A model generated the notes under the pieces. That model searched no databases. It saw only the letters and a list, made by a program, of their open reading frames with translations, and was not told where the DNA came from. A stretch of 64,000 bases of DNA from Candidatus Berkelbacteria bacterium RIFCSPLOWO2_01_FULL_50_28. Lineage in GTDB: Bacteria > Patescibacteriota > UBA1384 > 2-12-FULL-50-11. Location of the stretch: contig MEZX01000002.1 in assembly GCA_001774395.1 (NCBI GenBank), forward strand, positions 96,753 to 160,752, in the 5' to 3' direction. Below are positions 1 to 25,045 of this stretch, piece after piece; positions within the stretch are counted from its first letter, which is position 1, and each line of letters begins with the position of its first letter. Position numbers and translations under genes: made by a program.

Positions 1-65
1 AAGGGGTTCGACAGGCTGCGGGAAAAGCCGCCCAACAAGCAGCTAAGGCGGCTACTCGGGCGGCT

Positions 66-965: not shown

Positions 966-3900
966 CCGTCGAGGGCTCTTGGTATTACTGGCGACCCTGA
1001 TTGCCGTTTCACCGTTAATGCTCTCTGTTGCTTTTACCACGCCCGTTAAGGCGGTCGCCAGTTCTGTATCGTGGACGGACGGCGCTAACGGCTCACCGGA
1101 GGATATGCTTGGAAACCCCAACTACTACCAGGTCGCCAGCTCTTTAACCACCCTTGGAGCAGTGCTCTCCACCCGCGACAAGCTAGTGATATCGCCGCAG
1201 GACATGAATTACATCAAAGACGGAAAAGTGGACGTGCGCACCACTGATTACCTGATCTACCTAGTAACACCTGTTGAACTGGGCGGCGCTGGATTCGACC
1301 ACATCAAAGCCGGGCGGCTACTTAAAAACTACGACAGCGAGGGCGTTGGCAAATACGACCGCGAGACACTGGCCGCGGTGGAAGAGGACCAGAGCTTTGT
1401 CTCAACCCATAACCGCGGCACGGCGGTTGATGTTACTCAAGTTGGCTCAATTACCTGCAAACTAATCGAAAAAAGACACGTCGGTGGCAATACTACAAAG
1501 TGGCAAGCGCCCCGTAACATCGAGGTTGCCTGGCAGTCAACGGCCGGCATCGCTCGTCATCCCACACCGAAAGGTCCCAGTTTGGTGGAGATTGCCGGCG
1601 GTCTTACCGCCCAGGGCTGGTTGCGGCTCCTTAACGATTCCGGACAGCTGGACGAGGTGGCGGACTTTGTTAAGGGGCTGGACTTCAACAGTATCGTTGC
1701 CTATGTAGGGGCAAACATTCTTATCAAGCACTACGGCGCTGGTGACGTGACTTCCGATCCGCTAGCCAACGGCTTAATCGCAACGATCGGCGCCTCGGTT
1801 CTGCAGAAATCTATTCCCGATCTGCCAGCCGGTTTTGGAATTGCCTCGCGCGACGACGACATCCGCGTGGCTATGGTTAAGGCGCGGCTTGAAGAAACAC
1901 TAAACTTGCCGCCCGGGTCGCTTCGTGGCTGGGGTTGGAACGAGCTACTTAAGAGCACCGGCAAGCGTAACCTCGAGGGAGCGTTAAGCCTGCCTGCCCT
2001 ATTTCTCGAATCGCACGATCTAGCCCAACTCAACTCCTCCGCCAAGAACAACGGGGCAGTTAAGATGCTGAAGCGCAACGACGACGCGTTTAATGTGCCG
2101 CGCGGCTCCTTAGAAAAGATTCGCGCCAACGACGAGGATGGCTTGAAGTTGGCCGGGGTAAATATCCTCGCCGATGCCTTGCGCCTAACCGACGTCCAGA
2201 AGAGCGAGTTGTTGAAGATTGCTCAGAATAAACCGGGGCATGTTGACCTAACGGCCGTGCCGCTCGACGACAAAATTACCCCGACAGATCTACAGCTACT
2301 CTTCTCCCCCAAAGACTCCGACCATCAAGAAGTAGCCGGTAAATTCAAACAGCTCGGTCTCCAGATGTTGCAAGAGGCGATCAAGAAAGCGACTCCCAAC
2401 CAGTATCTCGGCGTTACAACTGACCTACTGAATAAGTTGGCTTACGGACAGCAAGATATGTTGCTCGGCAAGGTCACCGACGATATCGGGGCCAAAAAGA
2501 TTGCTGCCGACTCTGGGATAAAGGTTGAAGATTCTAAGAAGATCACTAGCGGCAAAGATAGCCCCTTGGCCAGCCAGATCGCCAAGTACATTAACGACGA
2601 GTTTCGTCTCTCGGGCAACGGCGCGGTAAATGCCGAGGAAACCAACGGCGTTCTAAAAGGTAGCAACTTCAAGGTTTTCGAGCGCCTCGGCGGAGCGCAG
2701 ATCGACAAAGCGTTGGATTTCAACTCTGGTACCAGCTTCGAGATCATTAGCGGCAAGAAGGATCTTGGCGATGGCTTGAAAGAAGCCTTTGCTCGCTCGA
2801 TCGGCTCAATTGTGGGTATTGATCGTGACTACCCATTGGACTTGAACGGTAACTTACAGCGCAACTACGGCACAGCCATCATTGAGTCCCGACTCGGTTT
2901 AACGAAGGGTCGGCTGAGCAGTATGAGTAGTGAAGAGAAAGTAACGTTTTTTGGCGGCAACAAAGATTCCTGGCAGTATAGCGATGTGCGCCTCGGTCTA
3001 CCTGCCGGCAGCTCGCAAGCGTTCTTTGAAGGTAAAATCACCGCCGACCAGCTAGCCGACAAGGCGGCCAACAACAACATCAAAGAAATCGCCGTCGATC
3101 AAATTTGGAATTTTTTCGATACTTCCGGTAAGTACAAAGTTGGCGACAGCGACGCCAAGGAGATTATTGAAACATTTAGTGACTGGTCGGCGAAAGAGCC
3201 GGCAGACCGCGACAAAGCGATTGCTCTAGCGCTGAAGATCGCCGGACGAAGCTTCGACCAAAAAGCCTCCTTTGCGATTGACTTTGTACGTGGCATTTCC
3301 GACGGCGGCCAAGACGAACAGAATACTAAACGAGTGATCAAAGAGGGCGTTCGGTTACTTTTCGAGGCGATGGGGATTAACGAGAAGTTCGGAGGCTCTC
3401 AGTCGCCAGACAAAATGGCCGAACTTTTGCTGAAAACCTACCAAGACACTTCCTTTAATCCAGCCGGTTCGAGCGGTAACCCCGAGATCGGCGGAATTCC
3501 CCAAGGACGACTGGAAGATTTCATCAGTAAAGCCACCGGCATCCCGAAAGAGTTCATGCCTGATATACGGGCTTTTATCGGTGGCGATTACCGCTTAGCT
3601 ATCAACCACTGGTCTGGAGCGATGTGGACCGATTTTGCCAATAGGTTCCTGCCTGAAGACAACGTTCTTAAATACGAAGATATTCGCAACTCAGTTATTA
3701 TGGACAACCAGACGTTGATCGATCAGGAAGCGTTCCGCCTTTATACTGTTGCCCAGGAAGAGCTTGGCGCCACCTATAACCTAGAAAACTTCAACCTTCT
3801 CAGCTACGACCAGCAGCAAGAGTTCCGCGCCCAAGCGCGTAAGCAACTGATGCAGCGCTTTGACGCCGAAGCCCGTTACAAGATTTCTGATGCCTTTTTG

Positions 3901-5334
3901 AATCAGTCGCTATACGACAAAAAGATCGTTGTGCCGAAAGATTTCTCCAAGATTATGTTTACCGGCACCGACAAACAGCGCGGCGAGCTTCTAACCGATT
4001 TCGCCATTGCCAATCTTGATGTAGCCCTAACCGAAGTCATACCTGGGTACAAGGCAGGGACATTGCAGTTGATGTTCGATGGCGACCTAACGGATACCGA
4101 GAAAAAGGCGATATTACTGAACCAAATATACAGCTACGGCGCCCAGCTGGCCGGATCGTCATTCAACAGTATCACTGGGCTCGGTGAGGACTTTTTGGGA
4201 GACTTTGCGACATTTGTGGTCTCTGGTGGAAAGAGCAACTTCTACACTGACCCGAAGTACGAGTCGATGTGGAGCTCTCTGGACGGTTGGCTGACGAGTA
4301 ATATAGGGATCGACGGTCTGCCAGTGGGAATATCGAAGTCAATTTACCTGGCGTTTAACGGTAAGTTTGATGCTGGTCGCAGCCTCAAAGGGGCGAACGG
4401 ACAGATCATCGTACCGTCACTCAATAGCCTCGGGCGAGACTTTCTAACTAACCGCGTTACCCAGTGGGCCGACGACGCTCTGGGAATGCCGGCTGGCACC
4501 GTCTATCAGTTGTACCAAGCAACAGTTGCTGTTATCCGGGCCTCCGAAGCGCTTTCGGCAATTCAGGCCGCGGCACCGGCGCTCAACTTAGTTGGTGTCT
4601 CCGCCGACCAGCTCACCGCCGCCGCTCGGGGTAATCTGCAGGCCGCCCAGAATCAACTCGTTTACCTTGCTATCACCACCGCTTTGAATGCCTGCGCCGC
4701 TTGCCAGGAGTTCTTCGGTTCAGTCGATCAGGCACTCGCCGCTCCCCCGGGTTTCACCAACGCCGCCGTCGCCGGTGCGATCGCCAACTCGCTTGGTATG
4801 GGCCCGATCGGGCTCTACATTGCCGCCGCAATATACTTGTTTGGCGTTTACGACGTTGACTACCGCTGTCCGGTGCCGCCGAACGAGCGCTACGCCTACA
4901 CCCAGTTCGACGAAAAGCCAGACCAAATCGTCTACAAGTGGGGTAGCTACTACAACGACCCCGCAGTTACGGTGAAGTCTAACCCCAAACTAGGGAACAA
5001 ATACTTGGGTAAATTTGACGAAAACCCGTTTGATTGGGACAACAGTGTGCCGTTTAGCGACGGGAACGATTCCAACCTCTGGATGTACTGGTCGCGCTAT
5101 TTCACTGGACGATTGCTTGAAGCAACGCTGGCCTATACCGCCGGTAAGGATAGTCGTGATAAACCAAACCAGATAATTACTTTTCGCCAGGCTAATGTGG
5201 AGTTCTTCGGCACTACCGCCGCGGCCGCTTTTGGTAGCAAAGGAAAAGATAACGAACGCGTGGGGCTTGGATTCTCGCAGAAGTCGACTAAAACCACCGA
5301 TTGGGTTCACATTGGGTTTGGAGGGTACTTCTAG
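952..5334 (+). CDS. Giant secreted protein (about 1460 aa) with an N-terminal signal peptide and a hydrophobic segment near the C-terminus; function unknown. The ORF track offers an alternative upstream start at 919.
   Basis: Long uninterrupted ORF. Signal-like MVATNRRGLLVLLATLIAVSPLMLSVA; C-terminal hydrophobic helices (GPIGLYIAAAIYLFGVY). Overlaps the upstream gene and abuts the downstream gene (operon). Confidence 0.6.
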   Translation: MVATNRRGLLVLLATLIAVSPLMLSVAFTTPVKAVASSVSWTDGANGSPEDMLGNPNYYQVASSLTTLGAVLSTRDKLVISPQDMNYIKDGKVDVRTTDYLIYLVTPVELGGAGFDHIKAGRLLKNYDSEGVGKYDRETLAAVEEDQSFVSTHNRGTAVDVTQVGSITCKLIEKRHVGGNTTKWQAPRNIEVAWQSTAGIARHPTPKGPSLVEIAGGLTAQGWLRLLNDSGQLDEVADFVKGLDFNSIVAYVGANILIKHYGAGDVTSDPLANGLIATIGASVLQKSIPDLPAGFGIASRDDDIRVAMVKARLEETLNLPPGSLRGWGWNELLKSTGKRNLEGALSLPALFLESHDLAQLNSSAKNNGAVKMLKRNDDAFNVPRGSLEKIRANDEDGLKLAGVNILADALRLTDVQKSELLKIAQNKPGHVDLTAVPLDDKITPTDLQLLFSPKDSDHQEVAGKFKQLGLQMLQEAIKKATPNQYLGVTTDLLNKLAYGQQDMLLGKVTDDIGAKKIAADSGIKVEDSKKITSGKDSPLASQIAKYINDEFRLSGNGAVNAEETNGVLKGSNFKVFERLGGAQIDKALDFNSGTSFEIISGKKDLGDGLKEAFARSIGSIVGIDRDYPLDLNGNLQRNYGTAIIESRLGLTKGRLSSMSSEEKVTFFGGNKDSWQYSDVRLGLPAGSSQAFFEGKITADQLADKAANNNIKEIAVDQIWNFFDTSGKYKVGDSDAKEIIETFSDWSAKEPADRDKAIALALKIAGRSFDQKASFAIDFVRGISDGGQDEQNTKRVIKEGVRLLFEAMGINEKFGGSQSPDKMAELLLKTYQDTSFNPAGSSGNPEIGGIPQGRLEDFISKATGIPKEFMPDIRAFIGGDYRLAINHWSGAMWTDFANRFLPEDNVLKYEDIRNSVIMDNQTLIDQEAFRLYTVAQEELGATYNLENFNLLSYDQQQEFRAQARKQLMQRFDAEARYKISDAFLNQSLYDKKIVVPKDFSKIMFTGTDKQRGELLTDFAIANLDVALTEVIPGYKAGTLQLMFDGDLTDTEKKAILLNQIYSYGAQLAGSSFNSITGLGEDFLGDFATFVVSGGKSNFYTDPKYESMWSSLDGWLTSNIGIDGLPVGISKSIYLAFNGKFDAGRSLKGANGQIIVPSLNSLGRDFLTNRVTQWADDALGMPAGTVYQLYQATVAVIRASEALSAIQAAAPALNLVGVSADQLTAAARGNLQAAQNQLVYLAITTALNACAACQEFFGSVDQALAAPPGFTNAAVAGAIANSLGMGPIGLYIAAAIYLFGVYDVDYRCPVPPNERYAYTQFDEKPDQIVYKWGSYYNDPAVTVKSNPKLGNKYLGKFDENPFDWDNSVPFSDGNDSNLWMYWSRYFTGRLLEATLAYTAGKDSRDKPNQIITFRQANVEFFGTTAAAAFGSKGKDNERVGLGFSQKSTKTTDWVHIGFGGYF

Positions 5335-6522
5335 ATGCGGCGCGGAGGGGCCTTGTGGCTAATTGTCATCGTTATATTTATCGTCCTGACGCTGGTGGCA
5401 GTGGTCCTGCCGTTTGCGGCTTTTGTCGGCATTGGCGCCAGCGGCCCCATTGCGCAAGCAACTGGCGCAGGCGGTAGCGGGCTAGGATGTTTTGTTGCCG
5501 ACCAGGAATTCTCTAATATATCTGTCGCTAACAATCCCGACGAAATCGTCGTCAAACTGGGCGCTAAGTATCCCGCCGCGAAACTGAACGCCGCTTATAT
5601 TAAACAAGTCCTCGAGAGAGGTAAGAAGGAAGGACTCAACCCCCTTATACCGCTGGCTATTTGGAACGGCGAACAGAACTTCAAGAACCCCGAGAAGGCT
5701 TTTGGATACGGCTATCGTGACTCCGGAACCGACAAAGGAGTATCAAATTGGGACGCGCAGTTGAACGGCGTTTACCGCTCGACCCGTTTGGCGACGCAGT
5801 CTCAGGACCCTTACGACAGCCCTTCCGGAACAAATTCATTCACTCGACTTTTCTACCACTACACTACGGCCATGAAAGTAATCTACGAGAACAGCGGTAA
5901 CTCTTGGGACGAGGAAGCCACCTATAAGGACGGTAGTAAGCCTCTAAAGAATCGCCTTGCCGTAATTCGCTTGCTCGCTCCCAGCCAAGTTACCTGTCAA
6001 TCCGTACTGGTCTCTGGTGTGAGCTCCGGGCAAGGGAACGACGGCGTGCCGCTTTTCAAGCAAGGTGATTACAAAAACATCGATTACGCCCCTGGCAATA
6101 GTATCGCCGCATCCGGCTGTTGCACAACTGCTGCTGCGATGATTCTGCGATTTTATGGCAAGCTCGACGCCGATCCAATCTCAATCTCGAAATTCTCCTA
6201 CCAAAATGGAGCCTATGTAGCAGGTAAGGGGACAGATCACGCCAAGTTAGTGCCACTGCTGGCTAAAAAATACAGCCTGAACTACGAAGTTCTGGGAAAC
6301 GACTGGAGCAGAGCGCTAACTCACCTCACTAACAACCATCCGCTCTTAGCGGCAGGGAAGGGCGCCCTACCGTACACTTCAGGCGGTCACTGCATCGTGA
6401 TAACTGGGTATAACGCCAAAACCGGCGAGCTCCGTATTAATAACCCGGCCAAAGGTGACGGACCGTATCCGTTAAGCCAAATTAAGTCCGAGACACATGC
6501 GCTATACTTTTTGGGACGATGA
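5335..6522 (+). CDS. Membrane-anchored secreted protein with a C-terminal papain-fold peptidase C39-like domain.
   Basis: Start codon immediately follows the stop of the giant ORF. N-terminal TM helix. Motifs ASGCCTTAAAMILRFYG (C39 Cys block, cf. 'DCGxAALxMxLxxYG') and GGHCIVITGY (His block). Confidence 0.6.
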   Translation: MRRGGALWLIVIVIFIVLTLVAVVLPFAAFVGIGASGPIAQATGAGGSGLGCFVADQEFSNISVANNPDEIVVKLGAKYPAAKLNAAYIKQVLERGKKEGLNPLIPLAIWNGEQNFKNPEKAFGYGYRDSGTDKGVSNWDAQLNGVYRSTRLATQSQDPYDSPSGTNSFTRLFYHYTTAMKVIYENSGNSWDEEATYKDGSKPLKNRLAVIRLLAPSQVTCQSVLVSGVSSGQGNDGVPLFKQGDYKNIDYAPGNSIAASGCCTTAAAMILRFYGKLDADPISISKFSYQNGAYVAGKGTDHAKLVPLLAKKYSLNYEVLGNDWSRALTHLTNNHPLLAAGKGALPYTSGGHCIVITGYNAKTGELRINNPAKGDGPYPLSQIKSETHALYFLGR

Positions 6523-7112
6523 GTAAGAAACTAATATTTGTCATTGGTGGGCTGGTAGCCATTGGGGCACTGCTGTTTGCTTGGTTCTCTCAACGTGGCA
6601 CCCTAGAGGTTGTCCTCGGCCAAGAAAGTAAGATCAAAAATGGTGTTGAGTTCAGCCTGAGTAATGACAAATTCCGTCAAACTCGCACTCTTCCCGCCAC
6701 CTTAAAAATGTCACCAGGAAAATACACCTTGTACGCCTACGGTAAAGACAGTGACGTCTTTCGTCGCGAGTTTTCGATAGTCGCCGGCGATAAAACATCG
6801 ATCGAAGTACTATTGGGGAACAACCCCAACCAAGCCCTAATAGACTCGACGACCGATTTTAATAACGCCGAGAGTATCCCGTACTACACACTCTTCCCTT
6901 ATGATGGTGGGGATTTTGCAATTGAAGCAACTCCAGACTTTGGTGACAAGCGCATTTCGAAAATAACCATTACCGTGTTTCACCGCTTCGCTCCACCAAG
7001 TGATGCAGAGATGTACACCTCCGAGCGTGATATTGGCGTTAAGGCCGCTAAGAAGTGGCTACAAAAAAACCAGGTGCCTTCGAGCATCCCAATCGAGATC
7101 ATCGACAACTAG
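6519..7112 (+). CDS. Hypothetical N-terminally membrane-anchored protein, last gene of the operon.
   Basis: ATGA overlap with the upstream gene; N-terminal TM helix LIFVIGGLVAIGALLFAWF; no recognised motifs. Confidence 0.5.
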   Translation: MSKKLIFVIGGLVAIGALLFAWFSQRGTLEVVLGQESKIKNGVEFSLSNDKFRQTRTLPATLKMSPGKYTLYAYGKDSDVFRREFSIVAGDKTSIEVLLGNNPNQALIDSTTDFNNAESIPYYTLFPYDGGDFAIEATPDFGDKRISKITITVFHRFAPPSDAEMYTSERDIGVKAAKKWLQKNQVPSSIPIEIIDN

Positions 7113-18520: not shown

Positions 18521-19885
18521 ATGAAGAGGGGGCTGATAATTCTTGCTGGTTTGGGTGTACTCCTGATACTCGTCGTGGTATTTATGAACATTTTTGGCGG
18601 CAAGACGCCTGACAGCAAGTCGGCACTCAAGGTATGGCTGCCCTTCGACGAAGTAGCGACTTATAAAAAAATCTCTAAGGAGTTTCAGGCTAAGCATTCC
18701 AGCATCGATCTGGAGTTTAGATACATTGACGCCAAAGACGCCAAGGACTACGAGGCAACGGTTATCAATGCTATTGCTGATGGTGAGGGCCCAGACATCT
18801 GGTTGGCACGGTTCGATTGGATACCCAAGCACGCCGCCAAGTCTCTACCGGCCTCATCGGGCGGTCTTACTGATGCGGTAACCCAGCTCAAAGTTCTGGT
18901 TCAATCTAATATCGTCGACTTGAACACTTACAACGGCGAGCTCTACGGCGTGCCGCTGTTTGCCGATTCGCTGGCGATAATCTACAACAGCGATTTTTAC
19001 CGTGAAAACAGTCAGAACTTTTCCCAGAAAAATCTAGCTTTCCTCGATCAGTACCCGAAAAGTTGGGCTGAGCTGAAGCGCAATGTTGGTCTAATCAGTT
19101 CCAACAGCGGCGCGACGATAAAGCGTTCAGGCTTAGCGATGGGAACAGTGAAAAATACACTTGCTCCCGCCGACGTTCTGACGGCCTTTTTGCTCCAGTC
19201 CAACTCGACGATTTTAAGCGAAGACGGCAAAGACGTGATATTCAATCTGGCGGCTTTCAAGAAAGGTAAACCAACATTCCCCACCGCTGAGGCGCTGTCG
19301 TTTTATACGAGCTTTGCCTCGCCAAAGGCGACTAACTATTCTTGGAACGCCGCAATGGGCGACCCAGTTGAGGCGTTCGTGGCCGGTAAGACGGGAGCCC
19401 TCATCGGTTACTACTCAACACTACAAGCAATACTTGATCAAGATCCGACTATCTGGCAAAAAATCATTGTAACTCCCATGGTTCAGAAAAATCCCAAGGC
19501 CGAGCGTATCGACTTCGTGATGGGCTGGACGCATTTAGTCAATCGCGACAGCACTGCTCCTGAGGCGGCCTGGCAGTACTTGAGTTATCTGGCGCAAGAC
19601 ACGGCGCAGTACGACTATGCAGAATCAACCGGTAGAATTGAAGTAGCCAAGCGCGATCGGGGCCTGGCGGAGCGCTCCGAGGCTAATATGTCGCGAGATG
19701 AGATATTTGGCGCTCAATTTGATACGGGTCAGTTGTTTATCAAACGGGAGTGGCAGTTGGTAGACGTTGTTCTGCAAGACGCCATTAACCAAGTGATTGT
19801 GAGCCATCGCACAGCCCAGAACGCCATCGATTCAGCCGCCAGCCGTTTCAAGGTTTTTCTGCAGGACGCTAGCGTGGGGCAGTAG
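18521..19885 (+). CDS. Extracellular solute-binding protein family 1 (SBP_bac_1-like), N-terminally TM-anchored, with no ABC permease or ATPase partner in the window. It is the first gene of the pilin-like operon.
   Basis: N-terminal TM helix LIILAGLGVLLILVVVF; SBP_bac_1-like N-domain (KVWLPFDE...GEGPDIWLARFDWIP); a 3-nt gap to the next gene. Confidence 0.65.
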   Translation: MKRGLIILAGLGVLLILVVVFMNIFGGKTPDSKSALKVWLPFDEVATYKKISKEFQAKHSSIDLEFRYIDAKDAKDYEATVINAIADGEGPDIWLARFDWIPKHAAKSLPASSGGLTDAVTQLKVLVQSNIVDLNTYNGELYGVPLFADSLAIIYNSDFYRENSQNFSQKNLAFLDQYPKSWAELKRNVGLISSNSGATIKRSGLAMGTVKNTLAPADVLTAFLLQSNSTILSEDGKDVIFNLAAFKKGKPTFPTAEALSFYTSFASPKATNYSWNAAMGDPVEAFVAGKTGALIGYYSTLQAILDQDPTIWQKIIVTPMVQKNPKAERIDFVMGWTHLVNRDSTAPEAAWQYLSYLAQDTAQYDYAESTGRIEVAKRDRGLAERSEANMSRDEIFGAQFDTGQLFIKREWQLVDVVLQDAINQVIVSHRTAQNAIDSAASRFKVFLQDASVGQ

Positions 19886-19887
19886 AG

Positions 19888-20163
19888 ATGCTGTTACCTA
19901 TCGAGAGAGCGCTAGCTCAAGGAGGTCCCGCAACCACTGGCTCGAGTTTTAGCGATTATCTGTCAGTGCAAATCGGCCGGGCGATCACCCTGGCTGGGCT
20001 CTTGGCGGTGTTGATGATAGTTTACGGCACGTTCCGCTACGCCACTTCGGGCGGTGACGACACTAAAACCAAAGAAGCGAAAGACATAATCTTGGGTGCG
20101 GTTGTTGGATTTTCCTTGTTAGTTTTAATAAAGATCCTCGTGCCGCTGTTGGGGCTGGAATGA
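19888..20163 (+). CDS. VirB2/TrbC-like pilin-family protein (two-helix hairpin, 91 aa).
   Basis: Two hydrophobic helices separated by the short loop YATSGGDDTKTKEAKDIILGAVVG. Paralogous modules recur in the next three genes. Confidence 0.65.
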   Translation: MLLPIERALAQGGPATTGSSFSDYLSVQIGRAITLAGLLAVLMIVYGTFRYATSGGDDTKTKEAKDIILGAVVGFSLLVLIKILVPLLGLE

Positions 20164-21242
20164 CGAAACTTGTTAAGCTCTTTTTCGGGTTGGCTTTCAG
20201 TCTGACACTGGTATTTTATGCTGGCGGGGTTGCCTTAGCGGACAGTAAACTGGTTGGCTTTTCTCCAAATCCGCTTGAATTTGCCACCGACTCAGCCAAC
20301 AAAGAGATAGTGACAGCCACCGTTTCGCCCGCACCGGCCTCGGCGCTGACGGTTAAATTAGTTGCTAATGGTAAGGTGACCCTTGGCAAGACGACGCTCT
20401 CTTTTAGCCCCACTGACACTACTGACACGTTCGGCGTTACCCCGGCTTCGGGGCTCAAGAGCGGCGACATCGTCATAATAACCGCCGAGGGGAAAATTGG
20501 CGCAGTAACTTACAAGGGAACGCTCGAGGCCGCGATCGGCGTGGTGGCACACCCTAACCCCAACGCTGGGAAAATAGATTGGAATAAAGTTCCCGGCACG
20601 ACCATCACCGATCTGAATGTTTTCCTGAACAAAGCGATAACTGGCGCTCTTTGGGTGATCGCTCTGGTGGCTTTTGCCGGATTAATCGCCGCCGGATTCA
20701 TGTATATAACCGCTGGCGGAGACGCGGCCAAGGCGGAGAAAGCCCGCAAGACGATTATCTGGTCGATTGTCGGGGTGATTCTGGCCTCAATTTCCTACAC
20801 GTTACTTCTGACCGCGGCGCAATTTAGGGGCATCGATTACACTGCAATTCCCCAAGAAACAAGCGATAGCGGCTCGACCGCGGATGACGGTTCTGCAACG
20901 ACAGGTTCGGGAGTCGGATTGACGGTTAGCGACACAGCGGGTACAAATTTTGCCGATGTTATTCCTCTCGACCAAACAACCCAGCTTTCATATCCGCTCG
21001 AGATTGTATTGAATAGTGCCCCAGCCGGTACGGTCACTGTCGAACTAATAACACAGGGTAATTTGCCGCTCACCCTTGCCGGTAGCAGTACGATGACGTT
21101 TGACGAAACCAGTTGGTCAACGCCGCAATCTTTTGGTGTTTCCTATGCTGGTGACGGTCAACCAGGTCAAGCGGGGCAGGTTCTGATCAAAGGCTCGGAC
21201 GGCTCTCGCCAGACAATTCGATTCGAGGTGCCAAATGTTTAG
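20160..21242 (+). CDS. Secreted protein with Ig-like beta-rich ectodomains flanking an internal VirB2/TrbC-like two-TM module.
   Basis: Signal peptide MTKLVKLFFGLAFSLTLVFYAGGVALA. Internal module LWVIALVAFAGLIAAGFMYITAGGDAAKAEKARKTIIWSIVGVILASISYTLL. The C-terminal domain shares the PLEIVLNSAPAGTVTVEL...LTLAGSS block with the next gene. Confidence 0.65.
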   Translation: MTKLVKLFFGLAFSLTLVFYAGGVALADSKLVGFSPNPLEFATDSANKEIVTATVSPAPASALTVKLVANGKVTLGKTTLSFSPTDTTDTFGVTPASGLKSGDIVIITAEGKIGAVTYKGTLEAAIGVVAHPNPNAGKIDWNKVPGTTITDLNVFLNKAITGALWVIALVAFAGLIAAGFMYITAGGDAAKAEKARKTIIWSIVGVILASISYTLLLTAAQFRGIDYTAIPQETSDSGSTADDGSATTGSGVGLTVSDTAGTNFADVIPLDQTTQLSYPLEIVLNSAPAGTVTVELITQGNLPLTLAGSSTMTFDETSWSTPQSFGVSYAGDGQPGQAGQVLIKGSDGSRQTIRFEVPNV

Positions 21243-22815
21243 TCGTCTTGCTCTTGGAGCAAAGCGCTACCTATTCGTGGCTATGTTGACTCTCTTGAGT
21301 CTGGCTCCGGCTTTGAGCTTTCCTGCCCCCGCTAGGGCCGCCGACCCGTTTCCGGTAGACTTTAGCCGCGTTGAGGTTAACAGCCAAAAGCAGGCCCAGT
21401 ACCGGGCGGACATTTTCCAAATTTATTCAGATCTAAAGAGCCAGATTGGCAGTCTGGGCAAATCGCGTGTTATCAAGGCGTTTGTGTTCTATCCGTGGGA
21501 TGTTCAAAAGATAAGCCCCAGTACCCAGGATGGATTTACGGCGGGCTACTTCCAACCGAGCACCGGTTATCTTGTGATAAATTCCGTCGAATTCGAAGAG
21601 ACTGAGAGCGTGAGAACCGTAATTGCTCACGAGCTACTCCATTCATTCGTTCCCGCAAACAACGGCTACGGATACAGCGGGGCGGGAGGCAAGGGCTACG
21701 TTTACGAGGAGATGCTGGCGGACTATTTCTCGAAACTCCACATTGGCGCGAGCCTGGGCGAAACCTACGCTGGTGCCGTAGCATCGCTTGGCTACTCTCA
21801 CCTGGCCAACCTCGTACCCCAAATACTAAACATCATCGGTTTAGCTGGGCAGAGTGATCCGGAAACAATACTGGAACGGGCTATATTTAGCAGCTCCAAG
21901 CTTGGGCTGATCGACCAAACTGTCGGCAAATACCTCACGGACAAAAACTTTTTGGCTAATCTCGGCGGCTTTCTCGACACAAGCCCCGCAAAAACCAATC
22001 TCACAGCGGCCAAGAAGTACCTCGACGAGGTAGAGAGAAAAATTCTTGCCACCAGCGCTAAATCGAGCTCTGTCCAGGTGCTGGTGAAGGGCCAGTTTAG
22101 CGCCGATTACGCCGACGTACTGACGATTCCGGAGAACGTGGAGGGTTTGTCGATTCCTCTGGAAGTTGCGTTGAGCGCCGCCCCTAGCAGCCCAGTTACG
22201 CTGACAGTGGCCGGGCGTGGGGCTCTGGTACTAACTTACACCGGTAGCGCTGATTTGGTCTTTGATTCAACTAATTTTGCCGACAGTAAATCTTTCAGAG
22301 TTTTCTACGACAAGGCGGCCAACAAGGAGGGGACGAGAGCAGAGATTAGTTTCTCTGGCCCCGGAGTGGATACAAAGACCGTGACGGTCGTCAAAGCCAG
22401 CGAGTTGAAAAGCGGCCCTGCCGGTGGGACGACCGGCGGAACTGGCGGCACGGCGGGTGGCACCACGGCGGCTGCTTCAGGAGTCGGCCCGTTTCTGGGC
22501 AAGCTCCTCCTGCCAGACTGTCTGCGCACCGGAGAAAAGGCTGTTAACGCCGAATTCGACACTTGCGTGCTCGACAGCGTGCGCCATTACATCGAGCTGT
22601 TACTTTTGCTGACGGCGTTAGGGGCGTTCGGTTATTTGCTTTACGGTGCCTTCTTATACGCTTCGGCCTTTGGCGATGAAGCGAAGGCGACGTTGGCCAA
22701 AAAGGTAATCACCGCGGCGCTAATCGGTGCGGCGCTCTCCACTCTGGCCTACTTGGCGATAATGTTACTGGCTCAAGGTCTCGGCGTCGAGGGCGGTCTA
22801 CTCCGAACGCCTTGA
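21235..22815 (+). CDS. Secreted HExxH zincin-like domain plus Ig-like domain, a Gly/Thr-rich linker and a C-terminal VirB2/TrbC-like two-TM module.
   Basis: Signal peptide MFSRLALGAKRYLFVAMLTLLSLAPALSFPAPARA. VIAHELLHSF...EEMLADYF (HExxH with a downstream Glu). Linker GPAGGTTGGTGGTAGGTTAAASG. C-terminal module LLLLTALGAFGYLLYGAFLYASAFGDEAKATLAKKVITAALIGAALSTLAYL. Confidence 0.65.
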   Translation: MFSRLALGAKRYLFVAMLTLLSLAPALSFPAPARAADPFPVDFSRVEVNSQKQAQYRADIFQIYSDLKSQIGSLGKSRVIKAFVFYPWDVQKISPSTQDGFTAGYFQPSTGYLVINSVEFEETESVRTVIAHELLHSFVPANNGYGYSGAGGKGYVYEEMLADYFSKLHIGASLGETYAGAVASLGYSHLANLVPQILNIIGLAGQSDPETILERAIFSSSKLGLIDQTVGKYLTDKNFLANLGGFLDTSPAKTNLTAAKKYLDEVERKILATSAKSSSVQVLVKGQFSADYADVLTIPENVEGLSIPLEVALSAAPSSPVTLTVAGRGALVLTYTGSADLVFDSTNFADSKSFRVFYDKAANKEGTRAEISFSGPGVDTKTVTVVKASELKSGPAGGTTGGTGGTAGGTTAAASGVGPFLGKLLLPDCLRTGEKAVNAEFDTCVLDSVRHYIELLLLLTALGAFGYLLYGAFLYASAFGDEAKATLAKKVITAALIGAALSTLAYLAIMLLAQGLGVEGGLLRTP

Positions 22816-22873
22816 AGGAAATCTTGACAACGGTCAGACGATAGTTTGTAGTGATAATATAAGGGAGGAAGAG

Positions 22874-23215
22874 ATGAATTTATTAAGTAAGTTTGTAGGA
22901 GTGGCGCACGCGGAGACACAGTTTCGGGTAGATAACTTCAAGCTGTTCGATATGTTCAAGCCGAACAACGCCGAACAAGGTCTAAGCCAAATCATTACCA
23001 AGATTGTTGGATTTGCCATGCTGATTGCGGCACTGATCGCTTTCGGGTATCTGATAGTGGCTGGCTTCCAATATATGACAGCCGGCGGAGACGCTGCCAA
23101 AGCCCAAACAGCTCGTCAGGGAATTGTTAACGCCTTGGTTGGTATTATTATTGTCGTTATTGCTTACACCCTGCTTGCCTACGTCTCCTCTGTTACAAGA
23201 CGCGGTAATTTCTAA
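22874..23215 (+). CDS. VirB2/TrbC-like pilin-family protein (113 aa).
   Basis: Strong RBS AAGGGAGGAAGAG. Module IVGFAMLIAALIAFGYLIVAGFQYMTAGGDAAKAQTARQGIVNALVGIIIVVIAYTLL. Confidence 0.65.
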   Translation: MNLLSKFVGVAHAETQFRVDNFKLFDMFKPNNAEQGLSQIITKIVGFAMLIAALIAFGYLIVAGFQYMTAGGDAAKAQTARQGIVNALVGIIIVVIAYTLLAYVSSVTRRGNF

Positions 23216-23219
23216 ACGA

Positions 23220-24728
23220 CTAAGCAACCGAACGAACTTCTTCCTCGGTAGTTAGGCCTTGGGCAGCTTTTTCTAAGCCATCATCAAGAAGGGTTCTGTT
23301 GCCGAGTTTTTTAAACATCTCCTCGAATTCCGAGAGCGAAGCCTCTCTTTTGATTAGCTCGATTGTCTGGGCATCTGGCACAAAATGCTCGACGATTAGA
23401 AATCGGCCACGAAAGCCGGTCTGATAACAAACATCACAGCCCGTACCGCCGCAAGCGGCGCAAACCCGTCGGACCAATCTTTGGGCCACAACCAAGCTAA
23501 TGGCGTCGGCCAACAGATACTTCGGGACGCCAATCTGTAGCAGTCGGGCAAACGAAGCAGCGGCAGAGTTGGTGTGAAGCGTCGAAAGCACCAAATGCCC
23601 CGTCAGTGCCGCATCAATAGCGATTTGGGCGGTCTCAACGTCCCGAATCTCGCCTACCATAATGACGTTCGGGTCTTGGCGTAAAACGGCCCGCAGGGCT
23701 TGAGGAAAATCAAAGCCGTCAGCAGGGTTCACTTGCACTTGCTCGATACCTTCGATGCGATACTCCACCGGGTCTTCGATAGTAACTATCTTCGAATCGG
23801 GTTTGTTCAGAAGCTGGAGCACGGCGTACAAGCTCGTTGTTTTGCCCGAGCCAGTTGGGCCGGTGAAAAGCACTAAGCCCTCTGGTCGTGAGACGGCGTC
23901 AAGGATTGCTTTCTGGGTGTCGGGCGAGACGTTAAGCTGGTCGAGCGAGAGAAAATTCTTAAATGTCAGCAGGCGCAGTTCGATGGTTTCGCCGTAAGCC
24001 GTCGGAACGGCGTTAACGCGAATATCAATGTGCTGCTCGCCGACTGTAAAGGTGAAACGGCCGTCTTGGGCGACTTTTTTGACGTCTAATTTTATGTGCG
24101 ACAGGGTTTTGATACGGGACGCCAGCAGGTGGTAGGTTTTCTCAGGCAAGTCGATCACCTCGACCAACTTGCCGTCAATGCGAAACCTAATCGCCACAGC
24201 GGTCTCCCCTGGTTCGAAGTGAACATCGGTCGCGTCGAGCGAAAGCCCCCCGGAAAGAATTGTTTCCAGTAGTTCGGTGGTTGAAACTTTATCGATCGCG
24301 TCCTTCAAATCTTTCAGGGTGCTGATTCTGACGGCGAACTGCTCTTTGGTTTGAGCCTTAGCGGGCCCGGTAACGGCCGCAACCAGCTCGTCGTAGCGCG
24401 TTAAACTATACTCGGCAGAACTTTTTGAGCAAATAAACGGCTGGAAAGTTAGGGACAGCTTCGCTCCCAATTCGCCCATTGCCTCGGCTAAGCCTTGGGC
24501 AAACGGGTTGGGGCTGGCAACGCGAACGTTGTGGCCGATTTTCATAAACGAGACAATCCTGAACCGCTCCGCAACATCTCGGGGAATGATGGCGATAACT
24601 TCACCCACAAACGGAAAGTTCACCAAATTAACGTAAGGCAGCTCTCTGGAGGCGGCAAACTCTGACGTGTGAGCTTCCTCGCGAGCCCTGTCGTACGAGT
24701 GAACAACGTTGCGTAAATCTTGGGTCAT
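23220..24728 (-). CDS. GspE/PilB-family type II/IV secretion-system ATPase.
   Basis: Walker A GPTGSGKTTSLYAVL; VMVGEIRD; tetracysteine CAACGGTGCDVCYQTGF typical of GspE/PilB; N-terminal GSPII-E-like region (LDATDVHFEP...RFRIDGKL). Confidence 0.85.
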   Translation of the reverse strand: MTQDLRNVVHSYDRAREEAHTSEFAASRELPYVNLVNFPFVGEVIAIIPRDVAERFRIVSFMKIGHNVRVASPNPFAQGLAEAMGELGAKLSLTFQPFICSKSSAEYSLTRYDELVAAVTGPAKAQTKEQFAVRISTLKDLKDAIDKVSTTELLETILSGGLSLDATDVHFEPGETAVAIRFRIDGKLVEVIDLPEKTYHLLASRIKTLSHIKLDVKKVAQDGRFTFTVGEQHIDIRVNAVPTAYGETIELRLLTFKNFLSLDQLNVSPDTQKAILDAVSRPEGLVLFTGPTGSGKTTSLYAVLQLLNKPDSKIVTIEDPVEYRIEGIEQVQVNPADGFDFPQALRAVLRQDPNVIMVGEIRDVETAQIAIDAALTGHLVLSTLHTNSAAASFARLLQIGVPKYLLADAISLVVAQRLVRRVCAACGGTGCDVCYQTGFRGRFLIVEHFVPDAQTIELIKREASLSEFEEMFKKLGNRTLLDDGLEKAAQGLTTEEEVRSVA

Positions 24729-24831
24729 TTAACTTATTGTAGCCGACTAGCTGATAGCGACCAACAGGAAGCTTTCTGTCGCGTGCGACTGACTTTTGAG
24801 TGATAATGAGGTAAGATTTAGGTCGTTATCA

Positions 24832-24957: not shown

Positions 24958-25043
24958 GAGAGGTCGCATAGCTCGGTTGATTGCGCCGGTTTCGAAAACC
25001 GGTATACCGCAAGGTATCGTGGGTTCAAATCCCACCCTCTCCG
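24958..25043 (+). tRNA. tRNA-Ser (anticodon CGA).
   Basis: Acceptor GGAGAGG/CCTCTCC. Anticodon stem CCGGT/ACCGG with loop TTCGAAA. Long variable arm ATACCGCAAGGTATCG. T-arm GTGGG-TTCAAAT-CCCAC. Discriminator G. Confidence 0.75.
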
Positions 25044-25045
25044 CA

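What the first reader, a model, noticed from the sequence alone, without database searches (positions are those of the whole stretch)
18521..24728. Array of four VirB2/TrbC-like pilin modules, two fused to large ectodomains including an HExxH zincin
Four consecutive, tightly packed or overlapping genes each contain a VirB2/TrbC-like two-helix hairpin, of the form G(F/Y)xYxTAGGD(A/D)xKxxxA...Y(T/L)LL. Two are short stand-alone pilin-like proteins, at 19888-20163 and 22874-23215.

The other two embed the same module in large secreted proteins:
- In 20160-21242 the hairpin is internal, between two Ig-like ectodomains.
- In 21235-22815 it is C-terminal, after a zincin-like HExxH domain, an Ig-like domain shared with the neighbouring gene, and a Gly/Thr-rich linker.

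The operon opens with a membrane-anchored orphan family-1 solute-binding protein, with no permease or ATPase nearby. A convergent PilB/GspE-type ATPase lies at its 3' end, and comFC is 3 kb upstream.

Fusions of a conjugative-type pilin module to enzymatic or adhesive ectodomains are not a described architecture. They may form a surface filament that displays a protease and adhesin domains, plausibly for host attachment or DNA uptake in an episymbiont.
Basis: partly seen in the sequence, partly recalled or inferred. Interest (0 to 1): 0.85.

Follow-up and report, generated by a model that had tools for sequence, protein, structure and literature searches.

The report
T4SS pilin array with domain-carrying pilins
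This is the pilin gene array of a type IV secretion system in an ultrasmall Berkelbacteria (CPR) genome; such arrays are already known, but here two of the four pilins carry large outward-facing domains, including a zinc protease-like domain, and the operon starts with an orphan sugar-type binding protein.

Summary
All five + strand genes lie at the stated coordinates. Each of the four pilin-like genes contains the same two-helix module. Three reach the Pfam T4SS_pilin (PF18895) threshold. The fourth does not, but its orthologues do.

The source is Candidatus Berkelbacteria RIFCSPLOWO2_01_FULL_50_28. The type IV secretion (T4SS) core (VirB6-like, PrgI/VirB3, VirB4) ends 203 bp before the window starts, about 19 kb upstream, across dnaA. 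The array has the same neighbours (hsp20, comFC) as the essential pilin array of Southlakia epibionticum. VirB2-like pilin arrays in Patescibacteria were published in 2023 and 2025, so the array itself is not new.

What I did not find described:
- **Gene 2** is beta-sandwich / hairpin / beta-sandwich.
- **Solute-binding protein:** a family-1 protein opens such arrays in at least twelve loci.
- **Tandem hairpins:** many related proteins carry 2-7 hairpins in one chain.

Display of these domains on a T4SS pilus is plausible but untested. A link to PilB or competence is not supported.

The parts
1..965 (+). 3' part of a 392-aa membrane protein with a weak NlpC/P60-like C-terminus. It is the gene directly after virB4 in the T4SS core cluster, and its start lies outside the window.
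   Evidence: L014 is identical to the window over 16,522 bp and extends it 4,666 bp to the left. NlpC/P60 scores 17.8 bits, below threshold. A DHVGFYIG motif is read from the translation.
919..5334 (+). Giant protein of the T4SS core cluster (1471-aa ORF, called as 1460 aa). Function unknown.
   Evidence: No Pfam hit. It follows the VirB4 gene and the 392-aa gene on the same strand.
5335..6522 (+). Peptidase_C39_2-like protein (395 aa), co-directional with the T4SS core genes.
   Evidence: PF13529 at 3.5e-17. Context.
6519..7112 (+). 197-aa protein of unknown function, the last co-directional gene of the T4SS core block.
   Evidence: No Pfam hit. It overlaps the preceding gene by 4 nt.
18521..19885 (+). 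Membrane-anchored orphan family-1 (sugar-type) solute-binding protein, the first gene of the pilin operon.
   Evidence: SBP_bac_8 and SBP_bac_1 at about 5e-15. One N-terminal TM helix. The closest solved structures are maltose, maltodextrin and trehalose binders. An SBP opens pilin arrays in L001-L006, L009, L016, L017 and L019-L028.
19888..20163 (+). pil1: stand-alone VirB2-like pilin of 91 aa (short leader plus two-helix hairpin).
   Evidence: PF18895 38.3 bits. Two TM helices. Orthologues of 84-151 aa occupy position 1 in all related arrays.
20160..21242 (+). P2 (360 aa; NCBI locus tag A3A71_00555): signal peptide, beta-sandwich, pilin hairpin, Ser/Thr/Gly linker, beta-sandwich.
   Evidence: PF18895 29 bits at aa 152-209. 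100% match to P0001. Orthologues of 111-493 aa with variable ectodomains.
20241..20609 (+). P2 N-terminal beta domain (aa 28-150).
   Evidence: Homologous to the C-terminal domain family by hhalign: 98.4%, E 8.6e-15.
20613..20825 (+). P2 pilin hairpin (aa 152-222) with the loop YITAGGDAAKAEKARK.
20907..21239 (+). P2 C-terminal beta domain (aa 250-360).
   Evidence: BLASTP 9e-12 to P3 aa 278-378. That P3 domain models as a beta-sandwich that matches Ig-like/Calx-beta folds.
21235..22815 (+). P3 (526 aa): signal peptide, gluzincin-like domain, beta-sandwich, Gly/Thr linker, Cys-x14-Cys segment, pilin hairpin.
   Evidence: AlphaFold2 model with mean pLDDT 71.5. Full-length homologue P0124 (517 aa, 38% identity) sits at the same operon position in L009.
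21340..22062 (+). P3 gluzincin-fold domain (aa 36-276).
21628..21711 (+). Predicted zinc site: H132-E133-x-x-H136 and E159 (HELLH-x22-E).
   Evidence: These residues are invariant in all 8 aligned homologues, together with Y187 and Y233.
22066..22404 (+). P3 beta-sandwich domain (aa 278-390).
   Evidence: Strands E280-E387 in the model. Foldseek matches Calx-beta CBD1/CBD2, pilus-chaperone Ig domains and Ig-like domains of glycosidases.
22405..22509 (+). Disordered Gly/Thr-rich linker (aa 391-425).
   Evidence: pLDDT below 50 over aa 391-422. Sequence.
22555..22779 (+). P3 pilin hairpin (aa 441-515) with the loop YASAFGDEAKATLAKK.
   Evidence: Helices H441-476 and H482-515. PF18895 16 bits only. 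The AFGD/AFGN variant is conserved in position-3 orthologues.
22874..23215 (+). pil4 (113 aa; A3A71_00565): stand-alone VirB2-like pilin.
   Evidence: PF18895 37.6 bits, TrbC 13.3 bits. Equals P0004. Orthologues of 100-128 aa at the last position of all related arrays.
23220..24728 (-). Convergent PilB/GspE-type ATPase. It is a conserved neighbour but is not shown to belong to the system.
   Evidence: T2SSE 386 bits plus an MshEN domain. Below the PilB and GspE equivalog cut-offs. Present after the array in the 10 loci whose contig reaches past the array (L001, L002, L004-L006, L009, L019, L021, L023, L027; L022 has a fragment).

Best explanation
The locus is the VirB2-like (PF18895) pilin operon of the origin-proximal, monoderm-type type IV secretion system of a Berkelbacteria (Patescibacteria) genome. 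It is the positional counterpart of the essential pilin array of Southlakia epibionticum.

**Gene order.** The operon reads SBP, pil1, P2, P3, pil4. Positions 1 and 4 are minimal pilins in every relative. Positions 2 and 3 are plastic: they range from 111 to 526 aa and have gained extracytoplasmic modules in this sub-lineage.

**Topology (shown).** A Sec signal or short leader comes first. Helix 1 runs out to in, followed by a short Lys/Arg-rich GGD-x-x-K loop on the cytoplasmic side, and helix 2 runs in to out. All added domains therefore lie outside the cell. These are two beta-sandwiches on P2, and a gluzincin domain plus a beta-sandwich on a roughly 35-residue flexible tether on P3.

**Mechanism (inferred).** pil1 and pil4 form the bulk of a T4SS-dependent surface tube or stub. 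P2 and P3 co-assemble through their hairpins as sparse or terminal decorated subunits. They would present adhesive Ig-like domains and a zinc peptidase at the contact site with the host cell. A monoderm cell has no outer-membrane channel that a bulky subunit would have to pass. The translationally coupled, membrane-anchored sugar-type SBP is a conserved accessory. It most likely acts as a glycan-binding receptor or an assembly partner rather than as a transporter component.
For: **The modules are VirB2-like pilins.**
- PF18895 above threshold in 3 of 4 genes, and in orthologues of the fourth.
- Homologues reach TrbC/VirB2 PF04956 at 26-29 bits.

**A T4SS is present in the same genome.**
- VirB6-like, PrgI and VirB4 (P-loop_TraG 95.9 bits, CagE_TrbE_VirB 26.6 bits) end 203 bp left of the window, on DNA identical to it.
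- The array has the same hsp20 and comFC neighbours as the essential Southlakia array (PMC10633639).
- Arrays near virB4 and dnaA are typical of the phylum (PMC12102498).

**The operon is conserved.**
- Operon order and positional orthology hold wherever four or more array genes are readable: 8 loci plus the two duplicates L022 and L023.

**The fusions are real and selected.**
- L009 carries both a P2 of 493 aa and a P3 of 517 aa with the zincin domain.
- Nine of nine proteins matching the zincin domain end in a pilin module.
- HExxH-x22-E is invariant and the fold is gluzincin.

**Hairpins work side by side.**
- P0127 fuses a P2-type and a P3-type hairpin in one chain.
- 58 hits carry 2-7 tandem hairpins, some located inside pilin arrays.

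**Context.** CryoET of another Patescibacterium shows a tube 8.6 nm wide reaching into the host, of unknown composition (PMC11880426).
Against: - No T4SS pilus has been demonstrated in any Patescibacterium, so 'pilin' is a homology-based label.
- A profile of the family finds no solved VirB2 or TraA pilin by sequence.
- The window proteins themselves do not reach the TrbC threshold.
- The array lies about 19 kb from virB4, with replication and housekeeping genes in between.
- Subunits carrying 25-45 kDa of ectodomain, or domains on both ends of the hairpin, cannot plausibly form a homopolymeric VirB2-type tube. This is my inference from the dimensions of known conjugative pili.
- Chains of up to 7 hairpins look as much like polytopic membrane proteins as like pilins.
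- Protease activity, SBP ligand and expression are all unknown.
Confidence: 0.55

Rival explanations
1. Membrane anchor only. The PF18895 hairpin in P2 and P3, and perhaps in the whole array, is a two-helix membrane anchor or the subunit of an in-membrane oligomer. The protease and Ig-like domains are ordinary cell-surface proteins held at the cytoplasmic membrane, and no filament is built.
For: - No pilus has been shown for this family in Patescibacteria (PMC12857230).
- Bulky domains lie on one or both sides of the hairpin.
- Polypeptides with 2-7 tandem hairpins resemble polytopic membrane proteins or ring-forming proteolipids.
- There is no sequence link to solved pilus subunits.
- Some zincin-pilin fusions stand alone, away from any array (L010, L012).
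Against: - The hairpin of the fused proteins keeps the family-wide loop and helix motifs of stand-alone pilins, which a generic anchor need not do.
- The fused genes occupy orthologous positions inside pilin arrays.
- The array is essential and part of the T4SS cluster in Southlakia.
- A single TM helix or a lipobox would be a simpler anchor. The neighbouring 310-aa HExxH protein has a lipoprotein-like N-terminus (LYGC).
Confidence: 0.3
2. Uptake conduit. The SBP and the pilin tube together form a nutrient- or glycan-capturing device. The zincin and SBP process and bind host-derived molecules, which are then imported through or along the T4SS structure. This can coexist with the best explanation.
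For: - A sugar-type SBP is the translationally coupled first gene of such arrays in at least 12 distinct loci, in at least three genomic contexts, at 28-50% identity.
- No cognate ABC permease or ATPase is in the window.
- The recent T4SS review raises uptake through a Patescibacterial pilus as a speculation (PMC12857230).
Against: - No known T4SS uses an SBP.
- The ligand is unknown.
- The Southlakia array has no SBP.
- An ABC partner could be encoded elsewhere in the roughly 630-kb genome.
Confidence: 0.15
3. Type IV pilus or competence accessory. The four proteins are assembled or used by the neighbouring PilB/GspE-type ATPase, or act with ComFC in DNA uptake.
For: - PilB is convergent and only 4 nt away, and it is present after the array in every locus whose contig reaches that far.
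- comFC lies 2.2 kb upstream.
Against: - The pilins have no class III (prepilin) signal peptide. They are two-helix hairpins of the VirB2 type.
- PilB is on the other strand, with no PilC, PilM or PilD beside it.
- The whole region is syntenic in this lineage, so adjacency is uninformative.
- hsp20 and comFC also flank the array in Southlakia, where ComEC-dependent competence is not what makes the T4SS essential.
Confidence: 0.05
4. Artefact. The long genes are assembly or frameshift fusions of a pilin gene with unrelated neighbours.
For: The word-indexed homologue search returned almost only the proteins themselves.
Against: - The same architectures occur in independent metagenomes at 28-42% identity.
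- Identical DNA is recovered from an independent sample.
- The reading frames are uninterrupted and the domains fold confidently.
Confidence: 0.02

Closest known systems
Essential VirB2-like pilin array of the Southlakia epibionticum ML1 T4SS cluster (SEML1_0014-0019; Wang et al. 2023, PMC10633639)
   Same: - Several sequence-divergent PF18895 pilins in tandem.
- Same phylum, with a T4SS core of VirB4, PrgI and VirB6-like genes.
- The array is flanked by hsp20, comFC and a tRNA-Ser gene.
   Different: - Of the Southlakia genes whose lengths or PF18895 positions I saw (SEML1_0014-0019), all are short, at most about 190 aa; SEML1_0017-0019 are 381-417 bp. None carries an enzyme domain.
- Their array abuts the VirB6-like gene directly and has no SBP.
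- Here two pilins carry 15-45 kDa of ectodomain, an SBP opens the operon, and dnaA, dnaN and recF separate the array from the T4SS core.
VirB2 arrays of Patescibacteria (Quinonero-Coronel et al. 2025, PMC12102498)
   Same: - 441 arrays of 2-11 pilin genes, detected with PF18895 and PF04956.
- About 25% identity within an array.
- T4SS often located next to dnaA and dnaN.
- This locus fits all of these and lies within about 20 CDS of virB4.
   Different: In the passages I searched, that paper mentions no pilin fused to other domains, no tandem multi-hairpin proteins and no SBP. It states that no adhesins were detected in the phylum.
TrbC/VirB2/TraA conjugative pilins of diderm T4SS (PF04956; T-pilus, F-pilus)
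   Same: - A leader followed by two hydrophobic helices joined by a short basic loop.
- Both termini outside, so N- or C-terminal additions would lie on the pilus exterior. The exterior position of the termini in solved pili is from my own knowledge.
- Homologues of the window pilins reach PF04956 at E about 1e-6.
   Different: - Classical pilins are 70-120 aa with no added folded domains.
- They must pass an outer-membrane core complex.
- The window proteins score only 13 bits on PF04956, and a family profile finds no solved pilin.
Variable VirB2/VirB5 copies of the Bartonella Trw T4SS
   Same: Tandem, sequence-variable pilin paralogues thought to diversify host-surface binding (cited in PMC12102498 and PMC12857230).
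   Different: In Trw the variation is by sequence only. Here the variation is by gain of whole domains at two fixed positions of the array.
Modular type IV pilins, such as the bimodular pilins of Streptococcus sanguinis (from my own knowledge, not checked here)
   Same: The concept is the same: a pilin polymerisation module grafted to a folded adhesive or enzymatic module, so that the filament displays it.
   Different: The pilin fold (single N-terminal helix with a class III signal peptide) and the assembly machine (PilB, PilC, PilD) are unrelated.
Mycoplasma ICE pilin-like proteins (NCBIfam NF045849 Mbov_0395 family; NF045848 MMCAP2_0566 family, a 322-position model)
   Same: Weak matches of pil1, P2 and pil4 to NF045849 (22-33 bits). 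pil1 also matches positions 61-116 of the longer NF045848 model, which hints that larger proteins with a pilin-like hairpin exist in other wall-less or monoderm T4SSs.
   Different: All scores are below the curated cut-offs, so membership is not shown.
Gluzincin metallopeptidases (MEROPS clan MA(E): M1, M4, M9, M30, M61)
   Same: - HExxH plus a downstream Glu as the third ligand.
   Different: - No Pfam or NCBIfam peptidase family is reached.
- The spacing is x22 rather than x18-19.
- The domain was found only fused to a pilin hairpin.

Membership tests
Pfam PF18895 T4SS_pilin | HMM score above the gathering threshold (26.6 bits) | tested here: met
   pil1 38.3, P2 29.0 and pil4 37.6 bits. P3 scores only 16.0 bits, but P3 orthologues have PF18895 hits on record and P3 aligns with the other modules.
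TrbC/VirB2 pilins (Pfam PF04956) | HMM score above the gathering threshold (27.9 bits) | tested here: inconclusive
   The best window protein, pil4, scores 13.3 bits at E 0.1. Close homologues P0084, P0087, P0101, P0109 and P0110 score 26.4-29.4 bits at E about 1e-6. The link is transitive only.
VirB2-type pilin | Leader followed by two hydrophobic helices joined by a short basic loop, with both termini outside | tested here: met
   Hydropathy scan. Helices H441-476 and H482-515 in the model. The loop GGD-x-x-K-x-x-x-A-[KR] is conserved.
VirB2-type pilin | Encoded in a genome, and near a locus, with VirB4, VirB3 and VirB6 | tested here: met
   VirB6-like (TrbL_3), PrgI (38.1 bits) and VirB4 (P-loop_TraG 95.9, AAA_10 39.7, CagE_TrbE_VirB 26.6 bits) end 203 bp left of the window, about 19 kb upstream of the array.
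VirB2-type pilin | Polymerises into an extracellular, VirB4-dependent pilus | not testable with these tools
   This needs cryo-ET, shearing with proteomics, or multimer modelling. No such pilus has yet been shown in the phylum (PMC12857230).
VirB2-type pilin | Sequence similarity to a pilin of solved pilus structure | tested here: not met
   A profile of 37 family members searched against all PDB sequences gave only a chance match to EmrE at E 2.3.
Gluzincin metallopeptidase (clan MA(E)) | HExxH motif plus a downstream Glu as the third zinc ligand | tested here: met
   H132, E133, H136 and E159 are invariant in 8 of 8 homologues.
Gluzincin metallopeptidase (clan MA(E)) | Thermolysin-like catalytic-domain fold | tested here: met
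Gluzincin metallopeptidase (clan MA(E)) | Membership of a curated peptidase family by HMM | tested here: not met
   Only sub-threshold matches to M76, M60, BSP, SprT-like, DUF6055 and DUF6782. PDB sequence profile E at least 0.11.
Gluzincin metallopeptidase (clan MA(E)) | Zinc binding and peptidase activity | not testable with these tools
   Biochemistry is needed.
ABC-transporter family-1 solute-binding protein | SBP_bac_1 or SBP_bac_8 HMM above threshold | tested here: met
   56.4 bits on each, against thresholds of 26 and 27. The nearest solved relatives are maltose and maltodextrin binders.
ABC-transporter family-1 solute-binding protein | Adjacent cognate permease and ATPase genes | tested here: not met
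   None among the ORFs of at least 120 aa in the 64-kb window that I scanned (a few short or overlapping ones were left out), apart from an unrelated MacB/FtsX-type pair at 60-62 kb. None next to the SBP in the related loci.
Type IV pilus / competence pseudopilus system | Pilins with a class III signal peptide and a single N-terminal helix; PilC, PilM and PilD next to the ATPase | tested here: not met
   The proteins are two-helix hairpins with Sec-type or short AxA leaders. PilB stands alone on the opposite strand.
Ig-like / Calx-beta-type beta-sandwich | Beta-sandwich fold matching solved Ig-like domains | tested here: met
   The P3 aa 280-390 model matches Calx CBD1 and CBD2 (TM 0.57-0.58 on the target), pilus-chaperone domains and Ig-like domains of glycosidases. 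The P2 domains are homologous to it by sequence; they were not modelled themselves.

The most novel reading that the evidence does not exclude
In Patescibacteria the VirB2-type pilin hairpin is used as a modular polymerisation handle. The T4SS tube would be a heteropolymer whose variable positions (here genes 2 and 3) graft enzymes such as a dedicated gluzincin, together with Ig-like adhesins, onto the filament. Some lineages would even encode 2-7 covalently linked subunits. A pilus-associated orphan sugar-binding protein would act as the host-glycan receptor. This would be the first conjugative-type pilus known to display catalytic domains, and a concrete molecular model for how these episymbionts attach to and open the host envelope.
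Probability: 0.3. Interest if true: 0.8.

Novelty: new variant of a known kind. Interest (0 to 1): 0.55.

Why it matters
The T4SS and its pilin array are essential for the host-dependent growth of the one genetically tractable Patescibacterium, yet what the structure does is unknown. The 2025 survey reported no adhesins in the phylum.

Pilins that carry Ig-like domains and a conserved zinc-peptidase domain would supply the missing host-contact functions. So would an SBP conserved at the head of the operon. Together they give specific, testable candidates: which domains bind the host, what the peptidase cuts, and what the SBP binds.

The fused and tandem forms also constrain how the hairpins can pack. 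They therefore bear directly on whether a monoderm T4SS really builds a VirB2-type tube.

Tried and rejected
**Searches that led nowhere**
- Word-indexed homologue searches with P2 and P3 found essentially only the proteins themselves. The exhaustive phmmer search was needed.
- A profile of 37 pilins against PDB sequences gave no pilin hit.
- The zincin profile gave only sub-threshold matches against PDB sequences and Pfam. The fold search was needed.
- Foldseek with the full-length P3 model matched only through the beta-sandwich, so the N-domain was modelled separately.
- I tried to fetch plasmid R388 for a bona fide VirB2 profile comparison, but the accession is not in the collection.
- The afdb50 fold library was unavailable.
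- The metagenome scan for more zincin-pilin loci failed. The alignment was too divergent, and the closer alignment gave no confirmed locus.
- The look-up of the first window ORF failed because the gene starts outside the window. The look-up of the C39-like gene succeeded.
- The promoter and terminator scan was no better than shuffled sequence.

**Ideas considered and rejected or left open**
- The upstream 310-aa HExxH lipoprotein is not shown to be a paralogue of the P3 zincin (BLASTP E 0.019, hhalign 37%).
- The SBP N-terminus MKRG plus a hydrophobic stretch might be a prepilin-like signal, as in archaeal bindosome proteins. It is invariant in 6 orthologues, but there is no further evidence. 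I treat it as a signal anchor.
- A functional link to PilB or comFC rests only on conserved local synteny, so I rejected it.

Full report
**What is in the sequence**

The five + strand ORFs and the convergent ATPase gene lie exactly at the coordinates given:
- SBP 18521-19885
- pil1 19888-20163 (91 aa)
- P2 20160-21242 (360 aa)
- P3 21235-22815 (526 aa)
- pil4 22874-23215 (113 aa)
- PilB-like 23220-24728 (-)

The spacing is that of one operon. There is a 2-nt gap, then overlaps of 4 and 8 nt, then a 58-nt gap with a strong ribosome-binding site before pil4.

Pfam T4SS_pilin (PF18895, threshold 26.6 bits) scores 38.3 bits on pil1, 29.0 on P2 (aa 152-209), 37.6 on pil4, and only 16.0 on P3 (aa 457-504). 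The four modules align with an invariant F..Y....GD..K...A...I.....G pattern. P3 has AFGD where the others have AGGD or SGGD. A hydropathy scan gives exactly two hydrophobic helices per module, Sec-type signal peptides on P2 and P3, and one N-terminal helix on the SBP.

**Source and wider context**

P2 is identical to hypothetical protein A3A71_00555 of Candidatus Berkelbacteria bacterium RIFCSPLOWO2_01_FULL_50_28, and pil4 to A3A71_00565.

Pfam scans of nearly all ORFs of at least 120 aa in the window found no VirB4, VirB6, coupling protein or relaxase. However, a public contig (L014) is identical to the window over 16,522 bp with no mismatch, and it extends 4,666 bp further left. That extension carries:
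- the end of a 1276-aa TrbL_3/VirB6-like gene;
- a 254-aa gene;
- PrgI/VirB3 (38.1 bits);
- an 868-aa VirB4 (P-loop_TraG 95.9, AAA_10 39.7, CagE_TrbE_VirB 26.6 bits) that ends 203 bp before window position 1.

Window positions 1-7112 are the co-directional tail of that cluster. They hold a 392-aa protein with a weak NlpC/P60-like end, a giant protein of about 1460 aa, a C39-like peptidase and a 197-aa protein. Next come recF, dnaN and dnaA (-), then yidC, ubiA, tRNA genes, comFC (-), hsp20, and then the operon. The pilin array is therefore about 19 kb, or roughly 18 genes, from virB4, on the other side of the replication origin.

**What was already known**

Wang et al. 2023 (PMC10633639) described a series of essential predicted pilins in the T4SS cluster of Southlakia epibionticum. 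Quinonero-Coronel et al. 2025 (PMC12102498) reported VirB2-like pilins, detected with PF18895 and PF04956, in 1,948 assemblies. They found 441 arrays of 2-11 genes with about 25% identity within an array, and frequent placement of the T4SS next to dnaA and dnaN. A 2025 review singles this out as the only monoderm T4SS with VirB2-like pilins (PMC12857230).

In the Southlakia supplementary tables, the six PF18895 genes SEML1_0014-0019 are followed by Hsp20 (SEML1_0020), a K02242/ComFC gene (SEML1_0021) and a tRNA-Ser gene. These are the same neighbours as here. The window array is therefore the positional counterpart of an experimentally essential array. As an array it is a known kind of feature.

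**Link to true VirB2**

The link is remote but real. The window proteins reach at most 13 bits on TrbC/VirB2 PF04956. Five close homologues score 26.4-29.4 bits at E about 1e-6 over the whole model. A 37-member family profile finds no solved pilin among PDB sequences.

**The fusions are real and recur**

A word-indexed search with the module profile returned 191 proteins, and the best 120 were all stand-alone pilins of 89-146 aa.

An exhaustive phmmer search of 1.84 billion cluster representatives with P3 returned 196 hits. I mapped the modules locally on the 148 newly retrieved proteins among the best 150:
- 52 are short single pilins.
- 22 have at least 100 residues before a C-terminal hairpin.
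- 10 have at least 100 residues after an N-terminal hairpin.
- 2 have domains on both sides, like P2.
- 58 carry 2-7 hairpins in tandem. Examples are P0150 and P0190, with six near-identical units and YITSAGDE..RARTAK loops.

This ranking favours long and multi-copy proteins, so it shows that the architectures exist rather than how frequent they are.

P0124 (517 aa, 38% identity) aligns with P3 from end to end. It sits at the same operon position in L009, after an SBP, a 95-aa pilin and a 493-aa P2 orthologue with two N-terminal domains and one C-terminal domain.

**The zincin domain**

Eight proteins align over the N-terminal domain, with invariant H132, E133, H136, E159, Y187 and Y233, and all end in a pilin hairpin. 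A ninth, P0204, shows the same architecture on reading its sequence (HEIIH near the N-terminus, hairpin at the C-terminus), but I did not align its N-domain to P3. No hit to this domain lacks the hairpin.

AlphaFold2 with this shallow alignment gave a full-length model of mean pLDDT 71.5:
- alpha/beta domain at aa 40-275
- beta-sandwich at aa 280-390
- disordered Gly/Thr linker at aa 391-422
- helices at aa 441-476 and 482-515

**The beta domains**

The P3 sandwich matches Calx-beta CBD1 and CBD2, pilus-chaperone Ig domains and Ig-like domains of glycosidases. The P2 C-terminal domain is homologous to it (BLASTP 9e-12). The N- and C-terminal domain families are homologous to each other (hhalign 98.4%, E 8.6e-15). 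The P2 domains were not modelled themselves.

**Conservation and plasticity of the operon**

Scans with the SBP alignment and look-ups of individual proteins gave at least twelve distinct related loci with an SBP at the head of a pilin array (L001-L006, L009, L019-L028, some of them duplicates). Where the contig reaches far enough, the order comFC (-), hsp20, SBP, four or five pilins and then PilB (-) is kept. Best-hit relations keep the four positions apart.

| Position | Lengths seen |
|---|---|
| 1 | 84-151 aa, always minimal |
| 2 | 111-116, 236, 298, 323, 360, 493 aa |
| 3 | 114-122, 150, 183, 190, 517, 526 aa |
| 4 | 100-128 aa, always minimal |

Domain gain is therefore recent and confined to two positions.

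In the window genome an extra 310-aa HExxH protein with a lipoprotein-like N-terminus lies between hsp20 and the SBP. Its relation to the P3 zincin is not established.

**The SBP**

It is of the sugar-binding type; the nearest solved relatives are maltose, maltodextrin and trehalose binders. It has no ABC partner nearby. It also opens pilin arrays in two more distant loci with different surroundings:
- L016: 28% identity, E 9e-37, in an array that contains a six-hairpin protein.
- L017: partial, 31% identity, E 6e-22, in an array that begins with a 683-aa zincin-pilin fusion.

I found no mention of this association in the 2025 survey, and Southlakia has no SBP at that place. Conserved local synteny weakens the argument within the Berkelbacteria-like lineage. 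The two distant loci and the 2-nt or overlapping junctions argue for real coupling.

**Mechanism**

*Shown:*
- Family membership of the hairpins.
- A topology that puts every added domain outside the cell.
- A T4SS core in the same genome.
- Positional equivalence with an essential array.
- Conservation of the catalytic motif.
- Exclusive coupling of this zincin subfamily to the hairpin.
- Covalent fusion of neighbouring hairpin types in other organisms. P0127 joins a P2-type and a P3-type hairpin in one chain, which implies that the hairpins work side by side in the same orientation.

*Inferred:*
- pil1 and pil4 form the bulk of a T4SS-dependent surface tube.
- P2 and P3 are incorporated through their hairpins as sparse or terminal subunits that expose adhesive domains and a tethered peptidase to the host surface.
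- A monoderm envelope, with no outer-membrane channel, is what makes such bulky subunits tolerable.

From my own knowledge of conjugative pili (about 8.5 nm wide, five subunits per 1.2-1.5 nm layer, termini on the outside), a folded 27-kDa domain cannot sit on every subunit. A homopolymer of P3 is therefore unlikely, and the 35-residue linker makes sense as a spacer. An 8.6 nm by 61 nm tube between another Patescibacterium and its host has been seen by cryoET, but its composition is unknown (PMC11880426).

The main rival is that the hairpin is simply a membrane anchor or an in-membrane oligomer, with no filament. I cannot exclude this and give it about 0.3. A role with PilB, comFC or DNA uptake is not supported. 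An assembly artefact is excluded.

**Novelty and score**

The array and its T4SS association are already known. I found no description of pilin-ectodomain fusions, of the pilin-dedicated gluzincin, of tandem multi-hairpin proteins, or of the SBP-first operon. The search covers open-access text only, and Pfam's own domain-architecture listing probably already shows such combinations.

I rate this a new variant of a known kind, with interest 0.55. A T4SS specialist would find enzyme-bearing VirB2-type pilins surprising. They also make the function of the essential Patescibacterial T4SS more testable. The central claim of display on a pilus, however, rests on inference.

Noticed in passing
Left of window position 1 (L014 1-4666) and window 1-7112: The T4SS core cluster lies immediately left of the window: VirB6-like TrbL_3 (1276 aa), a 254-aa gene, PrgI/VirB3 and VirB4 (868 aa, ending 203 bp before the window). 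It continues into the window with a 392-aa NlpC/P60-like protein, a giant protein of about 1460 aa with no Pfam hit, a C39-like peptidase and a 197-aa protein. No coupling protein or relaxase is seen in the accessible part.
   Followed up: partly
Proteins P0150, P0158, P0190, P0260 and others; loci L016 9751-11256 and L018 1777-3435: 58 of 148 exhaustive-search hits carry 2-7 PF18895 hairpins in tandem in one polypeptide. Two that I looked up sit inside ordinary pilin arrays. I found no description of such 'poly-pilins'.
   Followed up: partly
Protein P0127 (253 aa): One chain joins a P2-type hairpin (TSAGD loop) to a P3-type hairpin (LPPCLR...C segment, TAFGN loop). This is a Rosetta-stone-like fusion of two neighbouring array genes.
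   Followed up: no
window 18521-19885; L016 7112-8260; L017 2-658: A family-1 SBP heads pilin arrays even in distant loci (28-31% identity) with different flanking genes. Its N-terminus, MKRG[VL] followed by a hydrophobic stretch, is invariant in six orthologues. It loosely resembles a prepilin-type signal but lacks the rest of that motif.
   Followed up: partly
window 17064-17996 (-): A 310-aa protein with a lipoprotein-like N-terminus and HELSH...VYEE lies between hsp20 and the SBP. It is absent at that place in L001 and L002. Similarity to the P3 zincin is only marginal (BLASTP E 0.019, hhalign 37%).
   Followed up: partly
window 22519-22572 (P3 aa 429-446): A Cys-x14-Cys segment (LPDCLRTGEKAVNAEFDTCV) lies directly before the P3 hairpin. 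It is conserved in the position-3 relatives that carry the segment (P0124, P0125, P0127, P0148, L001 and L002); P0161 has the LPNCLQ half. It is probably a disulphide-bonded head specific to this pilin type.
   Followed up: no
window 23220-24728 (-): A PilB/GspE-type ATPase with an MshEN N-domain stands alone, with no PilC, PilM or PilD beside it. Its stop codon is 4 nt from that of pil4. This arrangement is kept in all related loci that reach that far.
   Followed up: partly
window 28341-30086: A conserved pair lies downstream of PilB in relatives as well: a 166-aa membrane protein and a 409-aa secreted protein with a weak dockerin-like C-terminus. It is followed by a 451-aa protein with a weak fn3 match.
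   Followed up: no
window 31481-50453: A large surface-polysaccharide gene cluster on both strands: two Wzx-like flippases, GT2 and several GT4 glycosyltransferases, methyltransferases, a UDP-glucose/GDP-mannose dehydrogenase and an NAD-dependent epimerase.
   Followed up: no
window 24857-25399 and 24747-25046: The ORFs listed here overlap tRNA-Ser (24957-25044) and are probably spurious.
   Followed up: no
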